15,331 nt of DNA, taken from the IMG/VR virus record IMGVR_UViG_2718218172_000006. One strand, written 5' to 3'. Positions 2,506-11,999 of this stretch are shown piece by piece; position 1 is the stretch's first letter; each line of letters begins with the position of its first letter. A model generated the notes under the pieces. The model saw nothing but the letters and a program-made list of their open reading frames with translations. It did no database searches and was not told the origin of the DNA. The position numbers were made by a program, and so were the translations under genes. The DNA comes from a virus. Its lineage: Duplodnaviria > Heunggongvirae > Uroviricota > Caudoviricetes.

Positions 2506-2543
2506 GGGGAGCCCGCAGAACTCGGAAAAAATCGTACGCTAAG
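2506..2543. repeat. 38-bp terminal inverted repeat of a Tn21-family transposon (tnpA end)
   Basis: GGGGAGCCCGCAGAACTCGGAAAAAATCGTACGCTAAG at 2506-2543, close to the Tn501/Tn1721-type IR as I remember it. The tnpA stop codon (2539-2541) lies inside it, as is typical for this family. Confidence 0.8.
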
Positions 2544-5505
2544 GTTTTCCGAGCTGCCGCAGCGGCCTGAATTTCCCGTCTTCCAGCTTGCGGCTTTGCC
2601 GCCAAACGTAATCGCCGGTCAGGTTGATGTGCTCCCAGCCCAATGGCGAAAGGTATTGCAGTAACTCAGGATTAACTGGCTTGCCTGCCTCTTCTCGGGC
2701 CTGGGTCGCGCGCTCCAAGTACACGGTGTTCCACAACACGATGGCGGCCGTCACCAGGTTGAGGCCGCTGGCCCGGTAGCGCTGCTGCTCGAAACTCCGA
2801 TCCCTGATCTCGCCGAGGCGGTTGAAGAACACCGCCCTGGCCAGGGAGTTACGCGCCTCGCCCTTGTTCAATCCGGCATGCACGCGGCGACGCAGTTCCA
2901 CGCTTTGCAGCCAATCGAGGATGAACAGCGTGCGCTCGATCCGACCCAGCTCGCGCAGAGCCACGGCCAGGCCGTTCTGGCGCGGGTAGCTGCCAAGCTT
3001 GCGCAGCATCAGCGATGCGGTGACGGTGCCCTGCTTGATCGACGCGGCCAGCCGCAGAATCTCGTCCCAGTGAGCGCAGACGTGCTTGATGTTCAGGGTT
3101 CCGCCGAGCATTGGACGCAGCGTCGGGTAGTCTTGGACGCTATTGGGCACATACAACTTGGTTTCACCGAGGTCGCGGATGCGCGGCGCGAAGCGGAAGC
3201 CCAGCAGGTGCATCAGGGCGAAGACGTGATCGGTGAAGCCAGCGGTGTCGGTGTAGTGCTCCTCGATCCGCAGATCGGACTCGTGGTACAGCAGACCGTC
3301 GAGCACGTAGGTGGAATCACGCACGCCTACATTCACCACGCGGGTGCTGAACGGCGCGTACTGGTCAGAGATGTGGGTGTAGAACAGCCGTCCTGGCTCG
3401 CTACCGTACTTCGGGTTGACGTGGCCGGTGCTCTCGCCTTTACCGCCGGCACGGAAACGCTGGCCATCGGAGGATGAGGTGGTGCCGTCACCCCAGTTGG
3501 CGGCGAAGGCATGCCGGAACTGGCTGTTGACCAGCTCGGCCAGGGCCGTCGAGTAGGTTTCGTCACGGATGTGCCAGGCTTGCAACCAGGACAGCTTGGC
3601 GTAGGTCATGCCCGGACTCGACTCGGCCATTTTGGTCAGGCCGAGGTTGATGGCATCGCCCAGGATCGCCGTTAGCAGTAGCGTCCGGTCTTTCGCCTGT
3701 GCGCCATCCTTCAGGTGCGTGAAGTGGCGGGTGAAGCCCGTCCATTCATCCACATCCATCAGCAGCTCGGTGATCTTGATGCGCGGCAGTAGCTGGCTGG
3801 TCTGGTCGATCAGCGCCTGCGCGGTGTTGGGCACCGCGGAATCCAGCGGGGTGATTTTTAGCCCGGACTCGGTGAGGATGGCATCGGGTAGTTCGTTGTC
3901 CTTTGCCAGTCGGGTGACAGTGGCCAGCTGCTCGTCCAGCAGCTGCAAACGCTCTTCCAGGTACTGGTCGCTGTTCGGGTTGATCGCGAGTGGCAGCGCC
4001 TGTTCCCGCTTGAGTGCGGCGAATTTCTCGGGAGGCAGTAGGTAGTCATCGAAGTCGCGGAACTGCCGCGAGCCTTTGACCCAGATGTCGCCGGAGCGCA
4101 GCGCGTTCTTCAACTCGGACAAGGCGCAGATTTCGTAGAAGCGCCGGTCGATGCCTTCCGGGGTGATCACCAGCGGTTTCCAGCGCGGCTTGATGAAGGC
4201 GGTCGGTGCGTCGGAGGGCACCTTGCGCAGATTATCGGCATTCATCTCGCGTAGGGTCTGAACGGCATCCAGCACGGCTTGCGCTGCCGTCGCGGCTCGG
4301 AGCTGAAGCACCTCCAGAAAGGCTGGGGTGTAGCGGCGTAGCGTAGCGAAGTTCTCGCTGACCAGGTGCAGGTGGTCGAAGGCTTCCGGCCGGGCCAGCA
4401 GCTCGGCCTCAGTGACACTCTGGGTGAACTCGTCCCAGGGAATGACCGCCTCGATGGCGGCGAACGGATCGTCACCGGACTCTTTAGCGTCCAGCAGGGC
4501 CTGGCCGATCTTCGAGTACAGGCGCACCTTGTCATTGATCGCTTTGCCCTGCTTCTGGAACTGCTGCTGATGCTTGTGTTTCGCGCCACTGAACAGCTTG
4601 ACCAGGATGCGGTCGTGCAGATCAACCAGTTCATCGATCACGGTCGCGGTGCTTTCCAGTACCACGGCGACCAGCGTGGCATAGCGCCTCTCCGGTTCGA
4701 ACTTGCCGAGGTCTTGTGGCGTCATCTGCCCGCCCTCGCGGGCGAGCTTCAGCAATCGGTTCTGGTGGATGTGCCGGCCGAGGCTGTCGGGAAGGCCCAC
4801 CAGTTGGAAAATCTTCAGCCGCTCGATGTGCTCGATCATGTGCCGCGAGTTCGGCTTCAGCGGTGATTGCCGCAACCAGGTCAACCAAGTGCTGTTGCTG
4901 CCGGCCTTAATGGTGAGCAGTTCGTCGAGCTTGGCGTGATGCGATGGGTTCAACGGCTCGATCAGGGCGCGATAGACCCGCCGATTGGCGCGTGCAATGG
5001 CCTCCGAACACGCCCGGTCAATAACGCTCAGCGTCGGCAGGATGCGCCGCTTCTGGCGCAAGCTCTCCAGCGCCTGCCCGGCCAGCAGCAAGCCCTTGTC
5101 GGTCTGCTGGGCCAGCTCGGTCAACTCGCGCACCAGGGCGCGGAAGTCCGACAGACCGAACGGGGCCAGTTGCAGGTAGGTGCGCAGTTCCAGAGCGTGC
5201 TCGCGGCGGGTCACGTCGCGCTCACCGTACTTCGCCCAACTCGCGGGGTCGGCTTGGACTTGCTTGGCCACCCACTGGATCACGGGCTCGGGTAGCGCCG
5301 TGTCGTTGCCCAGCGCATAACCAGGGTAGCGCAGCAGGCAGAGCTGCACGGCGAAGCCGAGGCGGTTGCCATCGCCCCGCCGTTGACGGATCAGGGATAG
5401 GTCGGAGTCGTTGAAGGTGTAGTAGCGGATCAGGTCATCCTGGCTTTCTGGCAGCGCAAGCAGGGTGTCGCGCTCCGTAGCCGAGAGAATCGAGCGACGC
5501 GGCAT
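2539..5505 (-). CDS. tnpA: Tn3-superfamily (Tn21 subgroup) transposase TnpA, 988 aa
   Basis: 988-aa ORF starting [37 protein letters not shown]..., with conserved blocks I recall from Tn21/Tn501 TnpA (e.g. [41 protein letters not shown]). Length matches the family. Confidence 0.95.
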
Positions 5506-5508
5506 GGT

Positions 5509-6069
5509 TCAGTCGTCCGTGCGAAGGTACTGGTAGAGGGTTTCACGGCTGATGCCGAACTCGCGTGCGAGCTGAGCCTTCGGCTCGCCGGCAGCGGCCC
5601 GCTGCCGCAACGTGATGGCTTGATCGTCGGAGAGAGCTTTCTTGCGGCCCCGGTAAGCACCGCGCTGCTTGGCCAGGGCGATGCCCTCGCGCTGCCGCTC
5701 GCGGATCAGGGCGCGCTCGAACTCGGCAAAGGCCCCCATGACCGACAACATGAGGTTGGCCATGGGCGAGTCCTCGCCGGTGAACACCAACCCCTCCTTC
5801 AAGAACTCGATGCGCACGCCGCGCTTGGTCAGCCTTTGCACCAGACGGCGCAGATCGTCGAGGTTGCGCGCCAGGCGATCCATGCTGTGCACCACCACGG
5901 TATCGCCTTCGCGGACGAATCCGAGCATGGCTTCCAGCTGCGGGCGCTGGGTGTCCTTGCCCGAGGCCTTGTCGGTGAACAGCTTGCCGATCTCGACCTG
6001 CTCAAGTTGGCGTTCCGGGTTCTGGTCGTAACTGCTGACCCGAACGTAACCGATGCGTTGTCCCTGCAA
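5509..6069 (-). CDS. tnpR: serine recombinase (resolvase) TnpR
   Basis: The track gives 5509-6123 (204 aa), but the conserved resolvase N-terminus starts at QGQRIGYVRVSS. A TTG at 6067-6069 is preceded by GGAGG, giving a ~186-aa protein typical of Tn501/Tn1721 TnpR. The start is uncertain; the ATG at 6123 is the alternative. It sits 3 bp upstream of tnpA on the same strand. Confidence 0.88.
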   Translation of the reverse strand: MQGQRIGYVRVSSYDQNPERQLEQVEIGKLFTDKASGKDTQRPQLEAMLGFVREGDTVVVHSMDRLARNLDDLRRLVQRLTKRGVRIEFLKEGLVFTGEDSPMANLMLSVMGAFAEFERALIRERQREGIALAKQRGAYRGRKKALSDDQAITLRQRAAAGEPKAQLAREFGISRETLYQYLRTDD

Positions 6070-6260
6070 GATGCCTCCATAGGCTGGATGGGCGGTAGGG
6101 CTTACGTTGGTTTTTGGTTCCATTGCGCCCTAAGCCTTGAATTTGTCAGGTTGGAATCTATGACCTTGGCAAGCATGTGTCAAAGAATGTGAAAGCAGAC
6201 TCTATTCTGACGGCGCAGTGTCGTTTTCAGAAGACGGCTGCACTGAACGTCAGAAGCCGA
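6070..6260. promoter_or_regulatory. res (resolution) site region and tnpR promoter, approximate extent
   Basis: By position: in Tn21-family elements the three-subsite res region lies immediately upstream of tnpR. Sequence shows repeated TGTCA-containing dyads (TGTCAGGTTGG…, CATGTGTCAAAG…). Sub-site boundaries not determined. Confidence 0.45.
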
Positions 6261-6607: not shown

Positions 6608-6763
6608 TTACTCCTCAGGTTCGTAAGCTGTGAAGACAGCGACCTCCGTCTGGCCGGTTCGGATTCGTACCTCGCAGAGGTCTTTCCTCGTTACCAGTGC
6701 CGTCACTATGACGGTTAAACAGATGACGATCAGGGCGATTAACATCGCCTTTTGCTGCTTCAT
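6608..6763 (-). CDS. hokD: Hok/Gef-family small membrane toxin (HokD/RelF-like), 51 aa
   Basis: Not in the track (under 60 aa). My manual translation gives MKQQKAMLIALIVICLTVIVTALVTRKDLCEVRIRTGQTEVAVFTAYEPEE, stop at 6608-6610, with AGGAGA upstream of the ATG. It lies 71 bp downstream of relE, as in the relBEF locus. Confidence 0.85.
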   Translation of the reverse strand: MKQQKAMLIALIVICLTVIVTALVTRKDLCEVRIRTGQTEVAVFTAYEPEE

Positions 6764-6834
6764 AGCCTGCTTCTCCTGTCAACGCAAAGCAGAAGTGTCA
6801 CCTTCGGTGCGAAACAGAGATGTCATGCTTTGGT

Positions 6835-8313: not shown

Positions 8314-10162
8314 AGTTAACATTACAAGATATAAGTAATGGACGCACTCCCAATTAGTCTATTTAAATCGCCACGAGTTTAACTGACAACCCATGATCAA
8401 TTATGAATTGCAACTATTTCTGTAGTCACTTTTGTGGGGACAGTCCACAAAACTGCCAACTTCCGCTTCTTGCTCTTAGCGGACATTAGCATAGGCTATT
8501 TACCATAACGCCTCATTACGCGCACCGCCCAGACTGACTCAGCGCGTTTCTGGCATATCCCCGGTAAAACAAGTAACAAACCACCCGAAAATGAACACCA
8601 GAAACGCGACTTAAGAATCTACCCTATGAATGGATATGCACTCAACCGAATCGATCTTGGTTTCAATCTTTTTTATCGGGATCAGGCTTCTTTTTAGGTA
8701 ACTTCGGGGGCTTAACTTGCTGATGACTTTGCGTTCGGCGCGTAAGCCAGGGATGGTCAGCTTTAGGTTTAACATAGTATTTTGAGCGTAAATCAATACG
8801 GGCATTATCCACTCGTTCATGGACACTCTTTTCATCATCCAGTGGTATAGGCTCCGGGCCATCAACATACTTTTCCCAGCCCAGCGCTTTCCCGTCATAC
8901 AGAACGTTAATTTCACCGTCAAAGTTCTCGCATACAGTAACAACCGAATGCCTAAGTCGATATCCCCGGCCCTCACTGCGTACCTGAAACGCACTGCTTT
9001 TGTACTGGAAAGTGAGATTTTTAGACAGAACGCGCTTCGCCTGTAGGCTGAAGATATAACCCAGTTCCTCTTCAGAATGGTGCACATCAAGATGAGCATT
9101 ATCAGTAGTACGAGGCGACGTAGCGAACCGGTTGTTATAGGCTTCAATAAAGGTCGGCAACCATGCATTTGCTGTTTCAATATCACTGATATTCTGAAGC
9201 CGCATTTCTTTGACCAGCCTGTCCTGTAGTGTCTGATTGGCGCGCTCTACCCGCCCTTTTGCCTGCGGGCTGTTGGCATGGATTGGCTCGATGCCCAGTG
9301 TCTTTATCGCACGAGTGAACTGGGTCAGCTCACCTTCCCGCTCTGGGTTATTTACCCTGAATATACTGTGTCTATCAGAGTAGAGAGCGAGCGGTACGCC
9401 ATGATCATTAAGGTAACCCCGGAGGGTTTCCATGTAAGCCCGGGTTGTTTCAGCAGGCACAAAACGCAACGCCATCAACGCACTGGTGGCATCATCAATG
9501 AAAACGATCAGTGTACATCTGGGGCCTCGATTTTCAAACCAGTCATGAGGTGAGCCATCAATCTGGATCAGTTCACCGTAAGATGGTCGTCGCATGCGGC
9601 GTTGATATATACGGGCAATTTTACGACGGCGTTCACGCCATAACCCCTCTTCTATCATCCACTTTCTGAGAGTTTCAACGGATAAAGATAAACCGTGTAT
9701 CTCGCGCAATTTTTCGCACGCAAACGTAGGTCCAAAATCAGCGTAACGGCCTTTGAGGAGTGAAATTACTGTTGCTCTGAATTCAGTAGAAAAGGAATTA
9801 TTAGGACGCTTTCCACGTCGGTGGGAAACCAGACCAGAAGGCCCTTCATTTCTATACCGTTGCACCAGACGTTTAACCTGCCGAATAGAAATGCCAATGC
9901 GTGCCGCAGCTTGTTCCTGAATAATCTGAAGTCGGTGGAGTTCCTTATGACTCATCGTAACAGTCTCTTTGATCATGAAAAATCCCCCAGAGAATTGTCT
10001 GGGGACATTTTAGAATGGTTCAAAGGGGACATTACAGCTTGGTGTTAACAATAGCCTGCTTCTCCGTGCCTTTCGGCACGTAAGAGGCTAACCTACATGT
10101 GTCTAGCATGAAATTGGCCTCAGATTAATGTTAAGCGTCTTGCAGGACGCGTAATGTTAACT
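8314..10162 (-). mobile_element. insertion sequence carrying the DDE transposase; ends uncertain
   Basis: The only candidate terminal repeats I could find by eye are a perfect 12-bp inverted pair, AGTTAACATTAC at 8314-8325 and GTAATGTTAACT at 10151-10162. The true ends may lie inside this span. No target-site duplication identified. Confidence 0.3.
8663..9976 (-). CDS. DDE transposase, rve/integrase-core type (IS481- or ISNCY-like), 437 aa
   Basis: 437-aa ORF with an N-terminal helix-turn-helix region (IGISIRQVKRLVQRYRNEG) and a D…D…E arrangement typical of rve-fold transposases (LIQIDGSPHDW … LALYSDRHSIF … KGRVERANQTLQ). Lysine-rich C-terminal tail. Exact IS family not identified. Confidence 0.8.
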   Translation of the reverse strand: MIKETVTMSHKELHRLQIIQEQAAARIGISIRQVKRLVQRYRNEGPSGLVSHRRGKRPNNSFSTEFRATVISLLKGRYADFGPTFACEKLREIHGLSLSVETLRKWMIEEGLWRERRRKIARIYQRRMRRPSYGELIQIDGSPHDWFENRGPRCTLIVFIDDATSALMALRFVPAETTRAYMETLRGYLNDHGVPLALYSDRHSIFRVNNPEREGELTQFTRAIKTLGIEPIHANSPQAKGRVERANQTLQDRLVKEMRLQNISDIETANAWLPTFIEAYNNRFATSPRTTDNAHLDVHHSEEELGYIFSLQAKRVLSKNLTFQYKSSAFQVRSEGRGYRLRHSVVTVCENFDGEINVLYDGKALGWEKYVDGPEPIPLDDEKSVHERVDNARIDLRSKYYVKPKADHPWLTRRTQSHQQVKPPKLPKKKPDPDKKD

Positions 10163-10310
10163 GGGGCTTTTCTCTATCTGCCGTTGGTGTCCATGCCCGA
10201 GGCAGATAGCCTCAAGCACCCGCAGTCATTCTACTTAACTAAGATTTCCCCGCAAACCGTTTTTGTCCAGCACAGTAAATATCCAACTAAACCAATGGAG
10301 TTCGCTGTAT

Positions 10311-10490
10311 TTACCGCCAGTATTCAATGCACATGACCGCCATGAACACCCCTAAAAAAAGGGCATTTATATATCCAAATATTAATATCAAAACATCAAC
10401 TTTTTCCATATACCTTGCTGTGAAGATGATGGGCATACATGATGCGAACAACCAGAACGCAACAAACAAAAACTGCAATGCGTTTTTCAT
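10311..10490 (-). CDS. small two-helix membrane protein, 59 aa (track ORF 10311-10529 trimmed to the ATG with a ribosome-binding site)
   Basis: ATG at 10488-10490 is preceded by GTAGGAGGAATA-ATG, a near-consensus Shine-Dalgarno. Product MKNALQFLFVAFWLFASCMPIIFTARYMEKVDVLILIFGYINALFLGVFMAVMCIEYWR has two hydrophobic helices. No family recognised. Confidence 0.5.
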   Translation of the reverse strand: MKNALQFLFVAFWLFASCMPIIFTARYMEKVDVLILIFGYINALFLGVFMAVMCIEYWR

Positions 10491-10674
10491 TATTCCTCCT
10501 ACAATCAATGTGCAATTACATTTAAACACACCTCAATTTGGCCGGACATATAAATATCTAAACCAGAAAAAATCACTTACATAGCGTTACAAACTCTTTA
10601 GTCTAAAGGTTCATCGTAAAACATTCCCCATACTTATCAGTCCGTTCCGCGCCAGGTAGCTCATTGCCTTATCT

Positions 10675-10704
10675 GGCAACCTGTAATCAGGTTTCCGCTT
10701 TTTC
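10675..10704 (+). terminator. candidate intrinsic terminator (plus strand)
   Basis: GGCAACCTG-taat-CAGGTTTCC (9-bp stem, one mismatch) followed by GCTTTTT. No convincing plus-strand gene upstream, so the terminated transcript is unknown. Confidence 0.3.
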
Positions 10705-11642
10705 AGTTGGCTGGTCGTTTAACCGACATAGTTAATCCATTAATCTAGTTGCCGGATGTTGGTGGATTTTCGCGTTTTAGTTGTTCATAAAAGTGCACAG
10801 CTTTAACCAGTTCTTCTGATGTAACTGGGACTGGTGAGGCAGTGAATAAGGCCTGAATTTGATAGTTCGGCCTGTCGTTACAATCCTCTTTTTTCGGTAC
10901 ATATTTCCAGTCACCAGACCACTACTTCCCCTGAAAGTCCGTAACGCCTTTTTTCACGTAGCGATATCGCCATGCCACTGGTTTTGCTTGCCCCGCCGTT
11001 TCATGCCCTTCCTGATAATTAATCTCGCTCATTCATCGCCCCACTCATCACAATATGCTTCGACCGGAGTTTTTCCCGCTTCATAGTCATCACGCTAGGA
11101 TTCGACATCAGCAGCACTTCCACCGCGTAACTCACCATAGTCCATTAATAGTTCATCCCGCTCTTCAAAACTGATGTTATATTTAGCTGAACAAAAATCA
11201 GCCACTTTGTTCTTCCTCATCGTCTTTTATTTCGTGGTATGAGTAATTGCAGTAGTTAAAGAAAATTTCTTATGCTCCGTCATGAATTTCCTCAGGTGTT
11301 GCGTCATCGTCCACTTCGAATACATCCTCAAAATCTCCACCAGCTATTCCCGTTTCAATAATAATTTTGAACTTTCGCATTTCACTACCGCCCTTTCGGG
11401 CGGCCTCCTGATGTTCTGAGGGTGCAGAAATCCATCCGGTTAAGGATTAAATTTTATTTACAGAACTGAATTTAATTATTCAGATATACGTATCTGTAGC
11501 CTTACGAATCTACTCACTGGATGCCTCTTTCATAAAAATAATCCAGTGGGTTTTATCGTTTTTTCCCTGTTCGTTGACAGATAACAGGTTTTCTGTCTGT
11601 CAGTGCCAGAATCTGGCTTACCGGTATTTGCGTTTCATTCCA

Positions 11643-11999
11643 TTAAAAAATCAGAACGCCGTGCGGCCTCAACACCCGAAAGGCTTCTTTAAATCTCTGT
11701 CGCGAATCATCACGCCAGGCATCTTTATTCAGCCGTCCATATTTCTTTCCCATCCAGGCGTTATCACCAACACTCTCAAGATGCGGAGGGTCTAATACAA
11801 CCATCGAAAAAGATGCGTCTGCAAATGATAATGCACGAAAATCTGCGATAATGTCAGGGCTGATAATCAAGCGTCTCCCATTGCGTAATGTGTATCCTTC
11901 TTTTCTGATATCGCTGAATATCGCCCGTTCGTCAGACTTATCGAACCAGAACATGCGGCTGCCACAGCACATATCAAGAATGGTTGCCGGTGCACTCAC
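11643..11999 (-). CDS. DNA N6-adenine methyltransferase-like protein, short (118 aa), possibly truncated
   Basis: An N-terminal SAM-binding-like motif (LDMCCGSRMFWFDK) is followed by a DPPH motif (VVLDPPHLE), resembling the DPPY/DPPW catalytic motif of amino-methyltransferases. The GTG start overlaps the stop of the upstream gene by 4 bp. The frame stays open for 29 more codons beyond the TAA stop, suggesting a nonsense mutation or an unusually short enzyme. Confidence 0.5.
   Translation of the reverse strand: MSAPATILDMCCGSRMFWFDKSDERAIFSDIRKEGYTLRNGRRLIISPDIIADFRALSFADASFSMVVLDPPHLESVGDNAWMGKKYGRLNKDAWRDDSRQRFKEAFRVLRPHGVLIF

What the first reader, a model, noticed from the sequence alone, without database searches (positions are those of the whole stretch)
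10530..11642. About 1.1 kb with no ORF over 41 codons on the prophage leftward strand, with strong local structure
Between the methyltransferase-like gene and the 59-aa membrane protein gene, the expected coding (minus) strand has only very short ORFs. Examples are MRKFKIIIETGIAGGDFEDVFEVDDDATPEEIHDGA (11270-11380) and a 41-codon ORF (11095-11220). The first ATG is preceded by a perfect 6-bp GC hairpin with a TTTC loop (plus strand CCGCCC-tttc-GGGCGG, 11388-11403) sitting between the ATG and a consensus AGGAGG (11404-11409, minus strand), which could gate translation. Nearby are two A+T-rich palindromes (CTGAAT…ATTCAG at 11466-11483, CAGATA-tacg-TATCTG at 11481-11496) and a plus-strand terminator-like hairpin at 10675-10704. 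This could be decayed nin-type genes, a small-protein locus or a regulatory/ncRNA region.
Basis: seen in the sequence. Interest (0 to 1): 0.45.

Follow-up and report, generated by a model that had tools for sequence, protein, structure and literature searches.

The report
Decayed prophage genes plus conserved linker
The ORF-free 1.1 kb is mostly the wreckage of four small early genes of a defective Qin-type lambdoid prophage of E. coli, each killed by stop codons or frameshifts; the only part of wider interest is a roughly 100-base intergenic linker carrying the GC hairpin, which recurs in front of unrelated genes in many related prophages.

Summary
The described features are at the stated coordinates. 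The region is not an RNA locus or a small-protein locus. About 80% of it (888 of 1113 nt) is remnant coding sequence on the minus strand:
- the 3' end of the methyltransferase gene (AAA to TAA, plus one extra G);
- a DUF7167 gene (TAA at codon 37);
- a 58-aa gene (TGG to TAG);
- a 171-aa-type gene (TAG, a 90-nt deletion and a 4-nt deletion).

Intact versions of all four, in the same order, occur in related prophage contigs at about 90% DNA identity. RefSeq already marks two of them as pseudogenes. Rfam finds nothing here. The plus-strand terminator-like hairpin is absent from relatives with the intact gene, and 6-bp hairpins in the region are no more frequent than in shuffles.

The GC hairpin is real (GNRA loop, about -17 kcal/mol). 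It lies in a conserved ~103-nt intergenic cassette (11381-11483). The SD-hairpin unit precedes three unrelated gene families, always 6-9 nt before the start codon, and follows at least ten different upstream genes. It occurs in 44% of complete E. coli genomes. It most likely acts as a portable translation-initiation region (split SD, as in T4 genes 38 and 25) and as a mosaic boundary. Covariation does not support the structure, and function is untested. The finding is ordinary overall.

The parts
11643..11999 (-). Truncated methyltransferase ORF (118 aa). It ends at a premature TAA (11643-11645), where relatives have AAA (Lys).
   Evidence: tblastn of the 160-aa Klebsiella phage homologue reads '...VLIF*WNETQI...' straight through the stop; relatives have TTTAAATGG where the window has TTTTAATGG; intact relatives are 163 aa.
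11525..11642 (-). 3' remnant of the methyltransferase gene. Homology continues past the stop, with one extra G in the GGG run at 11565-11567 (frameshift). The ancestral stop corresponds to 11525-11527.
11512..11551 (-). Hairpin with an 11-nt stem and 18-nt loop around the ancestral methyltransferase stop (10 of 11 pairs in the window, 11 of 11 in some relatives). No U-tract follows. Role unknown.
   Evidence: (I1). It accounts for the lowest MFE z-scores in the region.
11381..11483 (-). Conserved ~103-nt intergenic cassette. Order: stops in all three frames (TGAATAATTAA), an A+T-rich spacer, stem-loop 1, SD, a GNRA hairpin and a 7-nt spacer. It is a mosaic boundary shared by relatives that carry different flanking genes.
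11466..11483 (.). CTGAAT-aattaa-ATTCAG palindrome at the 5' edge of the cassette. Homology to L002, L003 and L075 starts exactly here. On the minus strand it supplies stop codons in all three frames.
11418..11436 (-). Stem-loop 1 of the cassette (GAGGG...CCCTC in relatives). It is weakened in the window (GATGG). One relative group has GAGTG...CACTC.
11404..11409 (-). Consensus Shine-Dalgarno sequence AGGAGG, 23 nt upstream of the ATG.
   Evidence: Columns 13-16 are invariant in alignment A1.
11388..11403 (-). Hairpin CCGCCC-GAAA-GGGCGG (GNRA loop) lying wholly between the SD and the ATG. With it folded, 7 nt separate the SD from the AUG.
   Evidence: (-16.9 kcal/mol, z = -2.8).
11198..11380 (-). 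DUF7167 pseudogene (60 aa when intact). TAA at 11270-11272 replaces Lys codon 37, and the rest stays in frame.
   Evidence: PGAP: 'DUF7167 family protein, internal stop'; PF23768, 54.9 bits; 78 of 79 relatives are 60 aa.
11029..11220 (-). Pseudogene of a 58-aa acidic protein (phrog_519). TAG at 11095-11097 replaces Trp. The ancestral ATG at 11203-11205 is GTG here. Its end overlaps the next gene's start (ATGA).
10611..11032 (-). Pseudogene of a 171-aa-type protein (phrog_660). It carries TAG at 10922-10924, a 90-nt deletion near 10769 and a 4-nt deletion near 10714.
   Evidence: (PGAP: 'frameshifted; internal stop').
10675..10704 (+). Terminator-like hairpin plus T-run on the plus strand. It sits inside the third pseudogene. 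The T-run is the complement of conserved Lys codons, and the stem is not present in relatives with the intact gene.
10491..10610 (-). True intergenic spacer (120 nt) between the third gene and the 59-aa membrane-protein gene. It is conserved with L075 and L002. No promoter or terminator consensus was found.
10311..10490 (-). Intact 59-aa membrane-protein gene with AGGAGG 4 nt before the ATG. It flanks the finding.
   Evidence: 95-100% identical products in L067, L075-L077 and L079.

Best explanation
The window is a Qin-type defective lambdoid prophage of E. coli. Its early rightward operon runs on the minus strand: dicC, ydaT-like, O-like, DUF977, methyltransferase, and so on.

The 1.1 kb is a run of four consecutive genes of that operon, all inactivated:
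- the 3' third of the methyltransferase gene;
- a DUF7167 gene;
- a 58-aa gene;
- a 171-aa-type gene.

These remnants cover about 80% of the interval. The rest is two genuine intergenic spacers. This part is shown.

The GC hairpin belongs to a conserved ~103-nt intergenic cassette. In intact relatives the cassette sits between interchangeable upstream and downstream genes. Two roles are inferred for it.
1. The SD-hairpin unit is the translation-initiation region of whichever gene follows. The 16-nt GNRA hairpin loops out, which brings an AGGAGG that is 22-25 nt away to an effective 6-9 nt from the start codon. This is the arrangement of T4 genes 38 and 25.
2. Because the cassette is conserved while its flanks are not, it is a site at which homologous recombination swaps gene modules.

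In this window the cassette is a leftover in front of a dead gene.
For: Identity of the locus:
- 100% matches in many E. coli chromosomes, with Qin genes on both sides.

Pseudogenes:
- Three-frame translation shows homology continuing in frame across TAA, TAG and TAG.
- tblastn with intact relatives confirms this.
- The window aligns to intact L075 at 90.7% identity. The only coding indels are 90-nt and 4-nt deletions in the third gene.
- An extra G and AAA to TAA disrupt the methyltransferase.
- The common intact architecture in the IMG/VR loci is 60 aa, then 58 aa, then a variable third gene.
- PGAP calls two of the genes pseudogenes.
- There is no Rfam hit and no PHROG hit for the plus-strand ORFs.

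Cassette:
- Homology to relatives with different upstream genes begins at 11483-11485 and ends at 11381-11386.
- Loose SD-hairpin motif matches, pooled over all fetched loci, number 195. They precede three unrelated families: DUF7167, the 72-aa phrog_1832 protein, and Ead/Ea22-like proteins of about 123-211 aa.
- The start codon lies 6, 7 or 8-9 nt after the hairpin. The motif follows at least ten different upstream C-termini in many combinations.
- In one upstream context (about 32 of the 195 instances) only the SD-hairpin unit is shared.
- A 77%-identical DUF7167 homologue keeps the GGAGG-CCGCCC-GGAA-GGGCGG arrangement behind a different upstream gene.
- The hairpin folds at -16.9 kcal/mol.
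- The cassette is in 2395 of 5426 complete E. coli genomes, with up to 5 places per genome, and in 21 phage records.
- The T4 gene 38 and 25 precedent is described in PMC3014915. The boundary-sequence model is described in PMC3233612.
Against: Against the pseudogene reading: nothing substantial. It cannot be excluded that the 36-aa and 41-aa stumps are still made.

Against a functional hairpin or cassette:
- There is no covariation signal. 91.7% of cells are paired, the same as the shuffle mean of 91.7, and only one pair has a double change.
- The RNAalifold covariation term is -0.05.
- Several relatives with an intact DUF7167 gene carry weakened stems of about -8 kcal/mol.
- Two relative groups lack the 5' arm and the AGGAGG altogether, yet keep the gene.
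- The sequences are close relatives (mean column identity 95%), so conservation may reflect recent common descent and recombination rather than selection.
- The loci were gathered through DUF7167 and through the exact motif. Family proportions are therefore biased, and the motif-derived set cannot show hairpin variation.
Confidence: 0.85

Rival explanations
1. The interval is a non-coding RNA or cis-regulatory locus. On this reading the hairpin, palindromes and terminator-like site are functional RNA or DNA elements, and the short ORFs are incidental.
For: - Some 100-nt windows fold better than shuffles: plus strand 10650-10749 has z = -4.3, and 11500-11599 has z = -3.2 to -4.0.
- A terminator-like site is present on the plus strand.
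- The ~103-nt cassette is conserved.
Against: - About 80% of the interval is alignable in frame to protein-coding genes of relatives.
- The best-folding windows lie inside those remnants.
- The plus-strand stem is absent in relatives with the intact gene.
- There is no Rfam match at E <= 5.
- No sigma-70 consensus promoter is present in the cassette.
- There is no covariation.
Confidence: 0.05
2. The 36-aa and 41-aa ORFs are functional small-protein genes in their own right. The truncated alleles would be retained because the N-terminal peptides are useful.
For: - The truncated allele is widespread: 511 records are at least 99% identical.
- The 36-aa products appear as database clusters (P0056 and P0064).
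- The SD, hairpin and ATG are intact in front of the 36-aa ORF.
Against: - The sequence after each stop still encodes the homologous C-terminus in frame, which points to recent nonsense mutations.
- 78 of 79 relatives encode the 60-aa form.
- The neighbouring genes are also broken, two of them by frameshifts or deletions. This fits general decay of a fixed defective prophage.
- Wide distribution is explained by vertical inheritance of Qin.
Confidence: 0.05
3. The hairpin is a translational gate or repressor. It would occlude the start region or a weak SD-like 3' arm (GGGCGG, 7 nt from the AUG), keeping the downstream gene off until the structure is melted. The upstream UCCU (11440-11443) could additionally pair with AGGA of the SD.
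For: - RNAalifold pairs an invariant UCCU with AGGA of the SD in all 41 sequences.
- Two relative groups lacking AGGAGG and the 5' arm keep the 3' arm GGCGG at the same distance from the ATG, with an intact gene.
- Hairpins that reduce initiation are common in phage mRNAs (PMC3014915).
Against: - The hairpin contains neither the AGGAGG nor the AUG. Only the last G of the SD can join the stem.
- The 6-9 nt distance between hairpin base and start codon is kept in front of three unrelated genes. This is what a looped-out spacer predicts.
- GGGCGG is a poor SD compared with the adjacent AGGAGG.
Confidence: 0.2
4. The in-frame stops are read through (suppression or recoding), so the genes are still functional.
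For: - Three of the lesions are clean in-frame stops with downstream homology preserved.
- From general knowledge, amber-suppressor hosts such as supE44 strains would read TAG.
Against: - The stops are of mixed type (TAA, TAA, TAG, TAG).
- Relatives have ordinary sense codons there (Lys, Lys, Trp, Pro).
- Two of the four genes also carry frameshifting indels.
- No recoding signal is evident.
Confidence: 0.02

Closest known systems
Pseudogenised accessory genes of fixed defective lambdoid prophages (Qin/Kim, Rac, DLP12 of E. coli)
   Same: - The locus is Qin, with dicA/dicC, relBE, hokD, flxA and ydfU around it.
- The genes are broken by nonsense mutations, small indels, deletions and IS or transposon insertions.
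- RefSeq already flags two of them as pseudogenes.
   Different: - RefSeq misses the 58-aa pseudogene.
- RefSeq annotates the truncated methyltransferase as an intact 118-aa protein.
Split translation-initiation regions of phage T4 genes 38 and 25, where a hairpin lies between the SD and the AUG (PMC3014915; Nivinskas et al. 1999; Malys and Nivinskas 2009, as cited there)
   Same: - The SD is too far from the AUG (23 nt here, against 22 and 27 nt in T4).
- A stable hairpin lies wholly in between.
- With the hairpin folded the spacing becomes 7 nt (5 and 11 nt in T4).
   Different: - The context is a lambdoid prophage rather than T4.
- The stem is short (6-7 bp) with a GNRA tetraloop.
- The same SD-hairpin unit serves several unrelated genes.
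- There is no experimental test and no covariation support.
Conserved boundary (linker) sequences at module junctions of lambdoid phages (the Susskind-Botstein modular theory and the HK620/HK97 comparisons, as summarised in PMC3233612)
   Same: A short conserved intergenic sequence is flanked by unrelated genes on either side in different genomes, in many combinations.
   Different: - This particular ~103-nt cassette, with its three-frame stops and SD-hairpin, was not found in the searched literature.
- Recombination at the cassette is inferred from mosaic patterns and has not been demonstrated.
PeSL cassettes of T4-type phages: early promoter plus stem-loop motifs that mediate modular shuffling (PMC2839356, PMC4122927)
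   Same: - Repeated, conserved regulatory motifs containing a stem-loop.
- They sit in hyperplastic regions.
- They flank small ORFs of unknown function that differ between close relatives.
   Different: - No promoter consensus is present in this cassette.
- The stem-loop is not a terminator, since it has no U-tract.
- The copy number is 1-5 places per genome, not dozens.

Membership tests
Pseudogene of a phage protein-coding gene | Intact homologous ORFs exist in relatives in the same gene order | tested here: met
   - L075 has the 60 aa, 58 aa, 171 aa and 59 aa genes in order.
- L033 and L034 have a 163-aa methyltransferase upstream.
- Source.
Pseudogene of a phage protein-coding gene | The window copy carries disabling lesions relative to the intact copies, and homology continues beyond them | tested here: met
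   - Stop codons at 11643-45, 11270-72, 11095-97 and 10922-24.
- An extra G at 11565-67.
- Deletions of 90 nt and 4 nt.
- Source.
Pseudogene of a phage protein-coding gene | Loss of the full-length product | not testable with these tools
   This needs proteomics or ribosome profiling.
DUF7167 (Pfam PF23768) | Match to the family HMM above the gathering score | tested here: met
   - The intact relative, 90% identical to the window's conceptual translation, scores 54.9 bits against a cut-off of 24.4.
- PGAP names the window-identical locus DUF7167.
Any Rfam RNA family | Covariance-model match in 10300-11800 | tested here: not met
   - No hit at gathering scores or at E <= 5.
- The only hit in the window is sok, at 10050-10221, outside the finding.
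Intrinsic (Rho-independent) terminator, tested on hairpin 11388-11403 | G+C-rich stem followed directly by a U-tract | tested here: not met
   - The stem is present.
- It is followed by UAGUGAAAUG on the minus strand and CCUCCUGAUG on the plus strand.
- The scan does not report it.
Intrinsic terminator, tested on plus-strand site 10675-10704 | Stem plus T-tract, conserved in relatives | tested here: not met
   - The pattern is present in the window.
- The stem is absent in relatives with the intact gene.
- The T-run is the complement of conserved Lys codons.
Split SD-AUG initiation region (T4 gene 38/25 type) | SD at a non-functional distance (more than about 15 nt) from the start codon | tested here: met
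   23 nt lie between AGGAGG and the AUG. The figure is 22-25 nt in front of the other gene families.
Split SD-AUG initiation region (T4 gene 38/25 type) | A stable hairpin wholly between SD and AUG that restores a 5-11 nt effective spacing | tested here: met
   - The hairpin is 16 nt and the 52-nt context folds at -16.9 kcal/mol.
- The residual spacing is 7 nt here and 6-9 nt elsewhere.
Split SD-AUG initiation region (T4 gene 38/25 type) | Phylogenetic support for the stem (compensatory changes) | tested here: inconclusive
   - One G-C to A-U double change, several G-U pairs and several mismatches.
- No measure exceeds the shuffles.
Split SD-AUG initiation region (T4 gene 38/25 type) | Destabilising the stem lowers translation | not testable with these tools
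   This needs reporter fusions and structure probing.
Conserved mosaic boundary sequence of lambdoid phages | The same short intergenic sequence joined to unrelated genes on both sides in different genomes | tested here: met
   - At least ten upstream and three downstream families occur in about 30 combinations.
- Homology edges cluster at 11483-11485 and 11381-11386.
Conserved mosaic boundary sequence of lambdoid phages | Recombination breakpoints enriched in the sequence | not tested
   This would need a breakpoint or phylogenetic-incongruence analysis on an unbiased genome set.
PeSL (promoter-early stem-loop) cassette | Contains an early promoter next to the stem-loop | tested here: not met
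   No sigma-70 consensus is found in the cassette, either in the window or in L075.

The most novel reading that the evidence does not exclude
The ~103-nt cassette (three-frame stops, stem-loop 1, AGGAGG, GNRA hairpin) is a dedicated, portable junction element of E. coli lambdoid prophages. It would do three things:
- terminate translation of any upstream gene;
- supply a structured 'split' ribosome-binding site to any gene placed 6-9 nt after it;
- serve as the homology patch at which accessory (ea/nin-type) genes are exchanged.

This would be a lambdoid counterpart of the T4 PeSL shuffling cassettes, combined with a T4 gene-38-type initiation region.
Probability: 0.3. Interest if true: 0.4.

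Novelty: new member of a known kind. Interest (0 to 1): 0.2.

Why it matters
For this window it matters little. The ORF-free kilobase is ordinary gene decay in a domesticated prophage, and it should not be pursued as an RNA or small-protein locus.

Two practical points follow.
- The annotated 118-aa methyltransferase is a truncated pseudogene.
- One 58-aa pseudogene is missed by the reference annotation.

The conserved SD-hairpin cassette would be a modest addition to two old questions if it is functional. The first is how lambdoid mosaics are assembled at gene boundaries. The second is how widespread split SD-AUG initiation regions are outside T4. It is easy to test with reporter fusions.

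Tried and rejected
- **Rfam.** Scans at gathering scores and at E <= 5 found nothing in the region.
- **Promoters and terminators.** No minus-strand promoter is present in either spacer. The plus-strand terminator-like site was rejected after comparison with relatives.
- **Covariation of the hairpin and of the whole cassette.** No signal above the controls.
- **Wider relatives.** A genome-contig scan for DUF7167 gave only 3 loci, so cross-genus covariation was not possible. The word-index protein search found almost only Escherichia proteins. One distant homologue had no retrievable DNA.
- **Function of the three small proteins.** PDB sequence searches gave no meaningful hit. Pfam gives only DUF7167, and all three PHROG families are of unknown function. 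Structure prediction was not run, because the genes are dead in this window.
- **Plus-strand ORFs** (75, 73 and 85 aa). No PHROG match, so they are treated as spurious.
- **Literature.** Searches for DUF7167 and for the hairpin sequence found nothing.
- **Palindromes as protein-binding sites.** Considered and rejected. Perfect 6-bp hairpins in the region are at chance frequency. One palindrome simply marks the cassette edge, and the other lies outside the cassette, in methyltransferase-module-specific spacer.
Full report
**Where the window comes from**

The interval 10400-11800 is 100% identical to the chromosomes of many E. coli strains. In those records it lies in the Qin-type defective lambdoid prophage. 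On one side are dicA, dicC, a ydaT-like gene, an O-like replication gene, a DUF977 gene and a class I SAM methyltransferase. On the other side are an ISNCY element, flxA, ydfV, relBE, hokD, rem, ydfU and the Q-like antiterminator. The window also carries a Tn3-family transposase and resolvase (2539-6123) next to hokD.

**Check of the observation**

Three qualifications apply.

1. A 45-codon GTG ORF (10777-10914) exists on the minus strand.
2. The lack of long ORFs is what non-coding DNA of this composition gives. The longest ORF is 45 codons, against 61 +/- 17 in shuffles, and 17% of shuffles are as poor. It stands out only against the surrounding dense operon.
3. The structure claim holds for the GC hairpin only.
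   - An all-GC perfect 6-bp hairpin occurred in 0 of 300 shuffles.
   - Perfect 6-bp hairpins in general number 4, against 1.6 +/- 1.6 in shuffles.
   - Most minus-strand windows have unremarkable MFE z-scores.

**What the interval is**

A three-frame translation of the minus strand shows three reading frames that continue, with clear homology, straight through single stop codons.

| Gene (intact size) | Window coordinates | Lesions in the window | Family |
|---|---|---|---|
| Methyltransferase (160-163 aa) | ORF 11643-11999, remnant to 11525 | AAA to TAA at 11643-11645; extra G in the GGG run at 11565-11567 | class I SAM methyltransferase |
| DUF7167 (60 aa) | 11198-11380 | TAA at 11270-11272, where relatives have Lys | PF23768, 54.9 bits against cut-off 24.4; phrog_1997 |
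| 58-aa acidic protein | 11029-11220 | TAG at 11095-11097, where relatives have Trp | phrog_519 |
| 171-aa-type protein | 10611-11032 | TAG at 10922-10924; 90-nt deletion near 10769; 4-nt deletion near 10714 | phrog_660 |

- For DUF7167, the product reads MRKFKIIIETGIAGGDFEDVFEVDDDATPEEIHDGA*EIFFNYCNYSYHEIKDDEEEQSG*.
- For the third gene, the product starts MSEINYQEGHET...
- For the methyltransferase, a 160-aa Klebsiella phage homologue and 163-aa E. coli prophage homologues align through the stop. The ancestral stop corresponds to window 11525-11527.

Intact versions of the three small genes in the same order occur in IMG/VR prophage contigs.
- 78 of 79 relatives encode the 60-aa DUF7167 protein.
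- The usual architecture is 60 aa, then 58 aa, then a variable third gene.
- L075 carries the complete 60, 58, 171 and 59 aa arrangement at 90.7% DNA identity to the window. The only coding indels between them are the two deletions.

Remnant coding sequence thus covers 888 of the 1113 nt. The rest is two real spacers: 11381-11524 and 10530-10610. PGAP already annotates the DUF7167 copy ('internal stop') and the third gene ('frameshifted; internal stop') as pseudogenes. It misses the 58-aa gene and calls the truncated methyltransferase an intact 118-aa protein.

- *Plus-strand terminator-like hairpin (10675-10704).* It lies inside the third pseudogene. Its T-run is the complement of conserved Lys codons. 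Its stem is not present in relatives with the intact gene. It is a chance feature.
- *Palindrome CAGATA-tacg-TATCTG (11481-11496).* It lies in spacer specific to the methyltransferase module, and perfect 6-bp hairpins in the region are at chance frequency.
- *Palindrome CTGAAT...ATTCAG (11466-11483).* It marks the exact point where homology to relatives with a different upstream gene begins.
- *Best-folding stretch (11500-11599).* This is an 11-nt-stem hairpin around the ancestral methyltransferase stop. No U-tract follows and its role is unknown.
- *Known RNA families.* Rfam finds nothing in the region even at E <= 5. The only hit in the window is sok, at 10050-10221.
- *Promoters.* No sigma-70 consensus promoter lies in either spacer.

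**The hairpin and its cassette**

On the minus strand the sequence reads AGGAGG-CCGCCC-GAAA-GGGCGG-UAGUGAA-AUG. The SD is 23 nt from the AUG. The 16-nt hairpin has a GNRA loop and folds at -16.9 kcal/mol in a 52-nt context (z = -2.8). It lies wholly in between and leaves 7 nt.

The last ~103 nt before the ATG (11381-11483) form a block conserved at 90-95% in relatives whose upstream gene is different.

It showed the motif in front of unrelated genes. Loose-motif matches, pooled over all fetched loci including the DUF7167-derived ones, number 195 (family assignments).

| Gene family after the motif | Instances (of 195) | Distance from hairpin to start codon |
|---|---|---|
| DUF7167 | 126 | 7 nt in 124, 6 nt in 2 |
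| 72-aa membrane protein (phrog_1832) | 33 | 6 nt |
| Ead/Ea22-like proteins of about 123-211 aa | 22 | 8-9 nt |
| No ORF of 30 aa or more called | 14 | n/a |

- The motif follows at least ten different upstream C-termini, in about 30 upstream/downstream combinations.
- In one context (about 32 instances, upstream family 68) only the SD-hairpin unit is shared, and the upstream gene ends 5 nt before the SD.
- Seven contigs carry two copies of the motif, usually about 1.06 kb apart.
- A DUF7167 homologue of 77% identity keeps GGAGG-CCGCCC-GGAA-GGGCGG behind a DUF551 gene.
- The 5' end of the cassette, TGAATAATTAA, holds stop codons in all three frames.
- The cassette is present in 2395 of 5426 complete E. 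coli genomes, with up to five places per genome. It is in 21 phage records, including Stx2a phages and ArgO145. No RNA feature is annotated on it.

**How it most likely works**

*Shown:* the interval is a string of four broken genes and has no coding function of its own.

*Inferred for the cassette in intact relatives:*
1. It is the translation-initiation region of whichever gene follows. The hairpin loops out and brings a distant strong SD to 6-9 nt from the start. This is the 'split' arrangement demonstrated for T4 genes 38 and 25, where 22 nt become 5 and 27 nt become 11 (PMC3014915).
2. It is a conserved boundary sequence at which homologous recombination exchanges accessory genes. This is the classical linker model for lambdoid mosaicism (summarised in PMC3233612). 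It is analogous to the PeSL cassettes of T4-type phages (PMC2839356 and PMC4122927).

The constant 6-9 nt distance in front of three unrelated genes is the strongest argument that the unit supplies initiation signals.

**Evidence against a functional structure**

- There is no covariation. 91.7% of cells are paired, equal to the shuffle mean, and there is one double change. The RNAalifold covariation term is -0.05.
- Some relatives with an intact gene have stems of only about -8 kcal/mol.
- Two relative groups lack the 5' arm and the SD altogether.
- All sequences are close relatives, and the sampling was biased by the way the loci were found.
RNAalifold also pairs an invariant upstream UCCU with AGGA of the SD.

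**Comparison with known systems, and novelty**

- The pseudogene array is an ordinary and partly annotated feature of Qin.
- The cassette behaves like a lambdoid boundary sequence and like a T4-type split initiation region.
- It is not a PeSL, because it has no promoter.
- It is not an intrinsic terminator, because it has no U-tract.
- It matches no Rfam family.
- I found no description of this cassette or of DUF7167 in the searchable literature.
- I rate it a new member of known kinds.

**Verdict**

The 'decayed genes' reading is right, and the ncRNA and small-protein readings are not supported. Interest is low. One modest lead is worth a reporter experiment: the portable SD-hairpin linker.

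Noticed in passing
window 11643-11999 (-): RefSeq annotates this gene as an intact 118-aa class I SAM-dependent methyltransferase. It is truncated by a premature TAA, and intact relatives are 160-163 aa.
   Followed up: yes
window 10050-10221 (-), with 8663-9976 (-): A full-length sok match (RF01794, 104 bits) sits next to a hok-like ORF of which only residues 6-20 remain (10050-10094). The ORF appears to be cut by an ISNCY-type IS whose 437-aa transposase is at 8663-9976. A second, intact hok (hokD) is at 6611-6778.
   Followed up: partly
window 2539-6123 (-), and 1-1512: A Tn3-family transposase (988 aa) and a resolvase (204 aa) are inserted beside hokD and relBE. The first ~1.5 kb of the window has no match to the Qin region of the best-matching genomes.
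   Followed up: no
window 10311-10490 (-): An intact 59-aa membrane-protein gene has AGGAGG 4 nt before the ATG. Its product is 95-100% conserved in several IMG/VR contigs. It is unannotated in the RefSeq record examined, and some phage records annotate the opposite strand as 'hornerin'. It lies directly upstream of the sok/hok remnant.
   Followed up: partly
window 11466-11476 (-); loci L075, L216 and others: The 5' edge of the conserved cassette reads TGAATAATTAA. This places stop codons in all three frames at 4-nt intervals, so any upstream gene joined there would be terminated.
   Followed up: partly
window 11512-11551 (-): A hairpin with an 11-nt stem and 18-nt loop brackets the ancestral methyltransferase stop codon. 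It is perfect in L073 and L045 and has one mismatch here. No U-tract follows. It produces the lowest MFE z-scores of the region on both strands.
   Followed up: partly
proteins P0001, P0003, P0005 (relatives): Many database DUF7167 entries are 87-93 aa because the start was called upstream, through the cassette and hairpin. In cluster P0003 (139 members) the canonical ATG is AGG.
   Followed up: partly
loci L109, L125, L157, L165, L208, L216: These contigs carry two copies of the SD-hairpin motif about 1.06 kb apart. One precedes the 72-aa phrog_1832 membrane protein and the other precedes DUF7167.
   Followed up: partly
loci L002 and L003 (phages vB_EcoS-640R1 and vB_EcoM-606R7): These sequenced phages also carry broken copies of the same small genes. 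In L002 the third gene is frameshifted. In L003 the 58-aa gene is split into 36 and 29 aa. These accessory genes therefore decay often.
   Followed up: no
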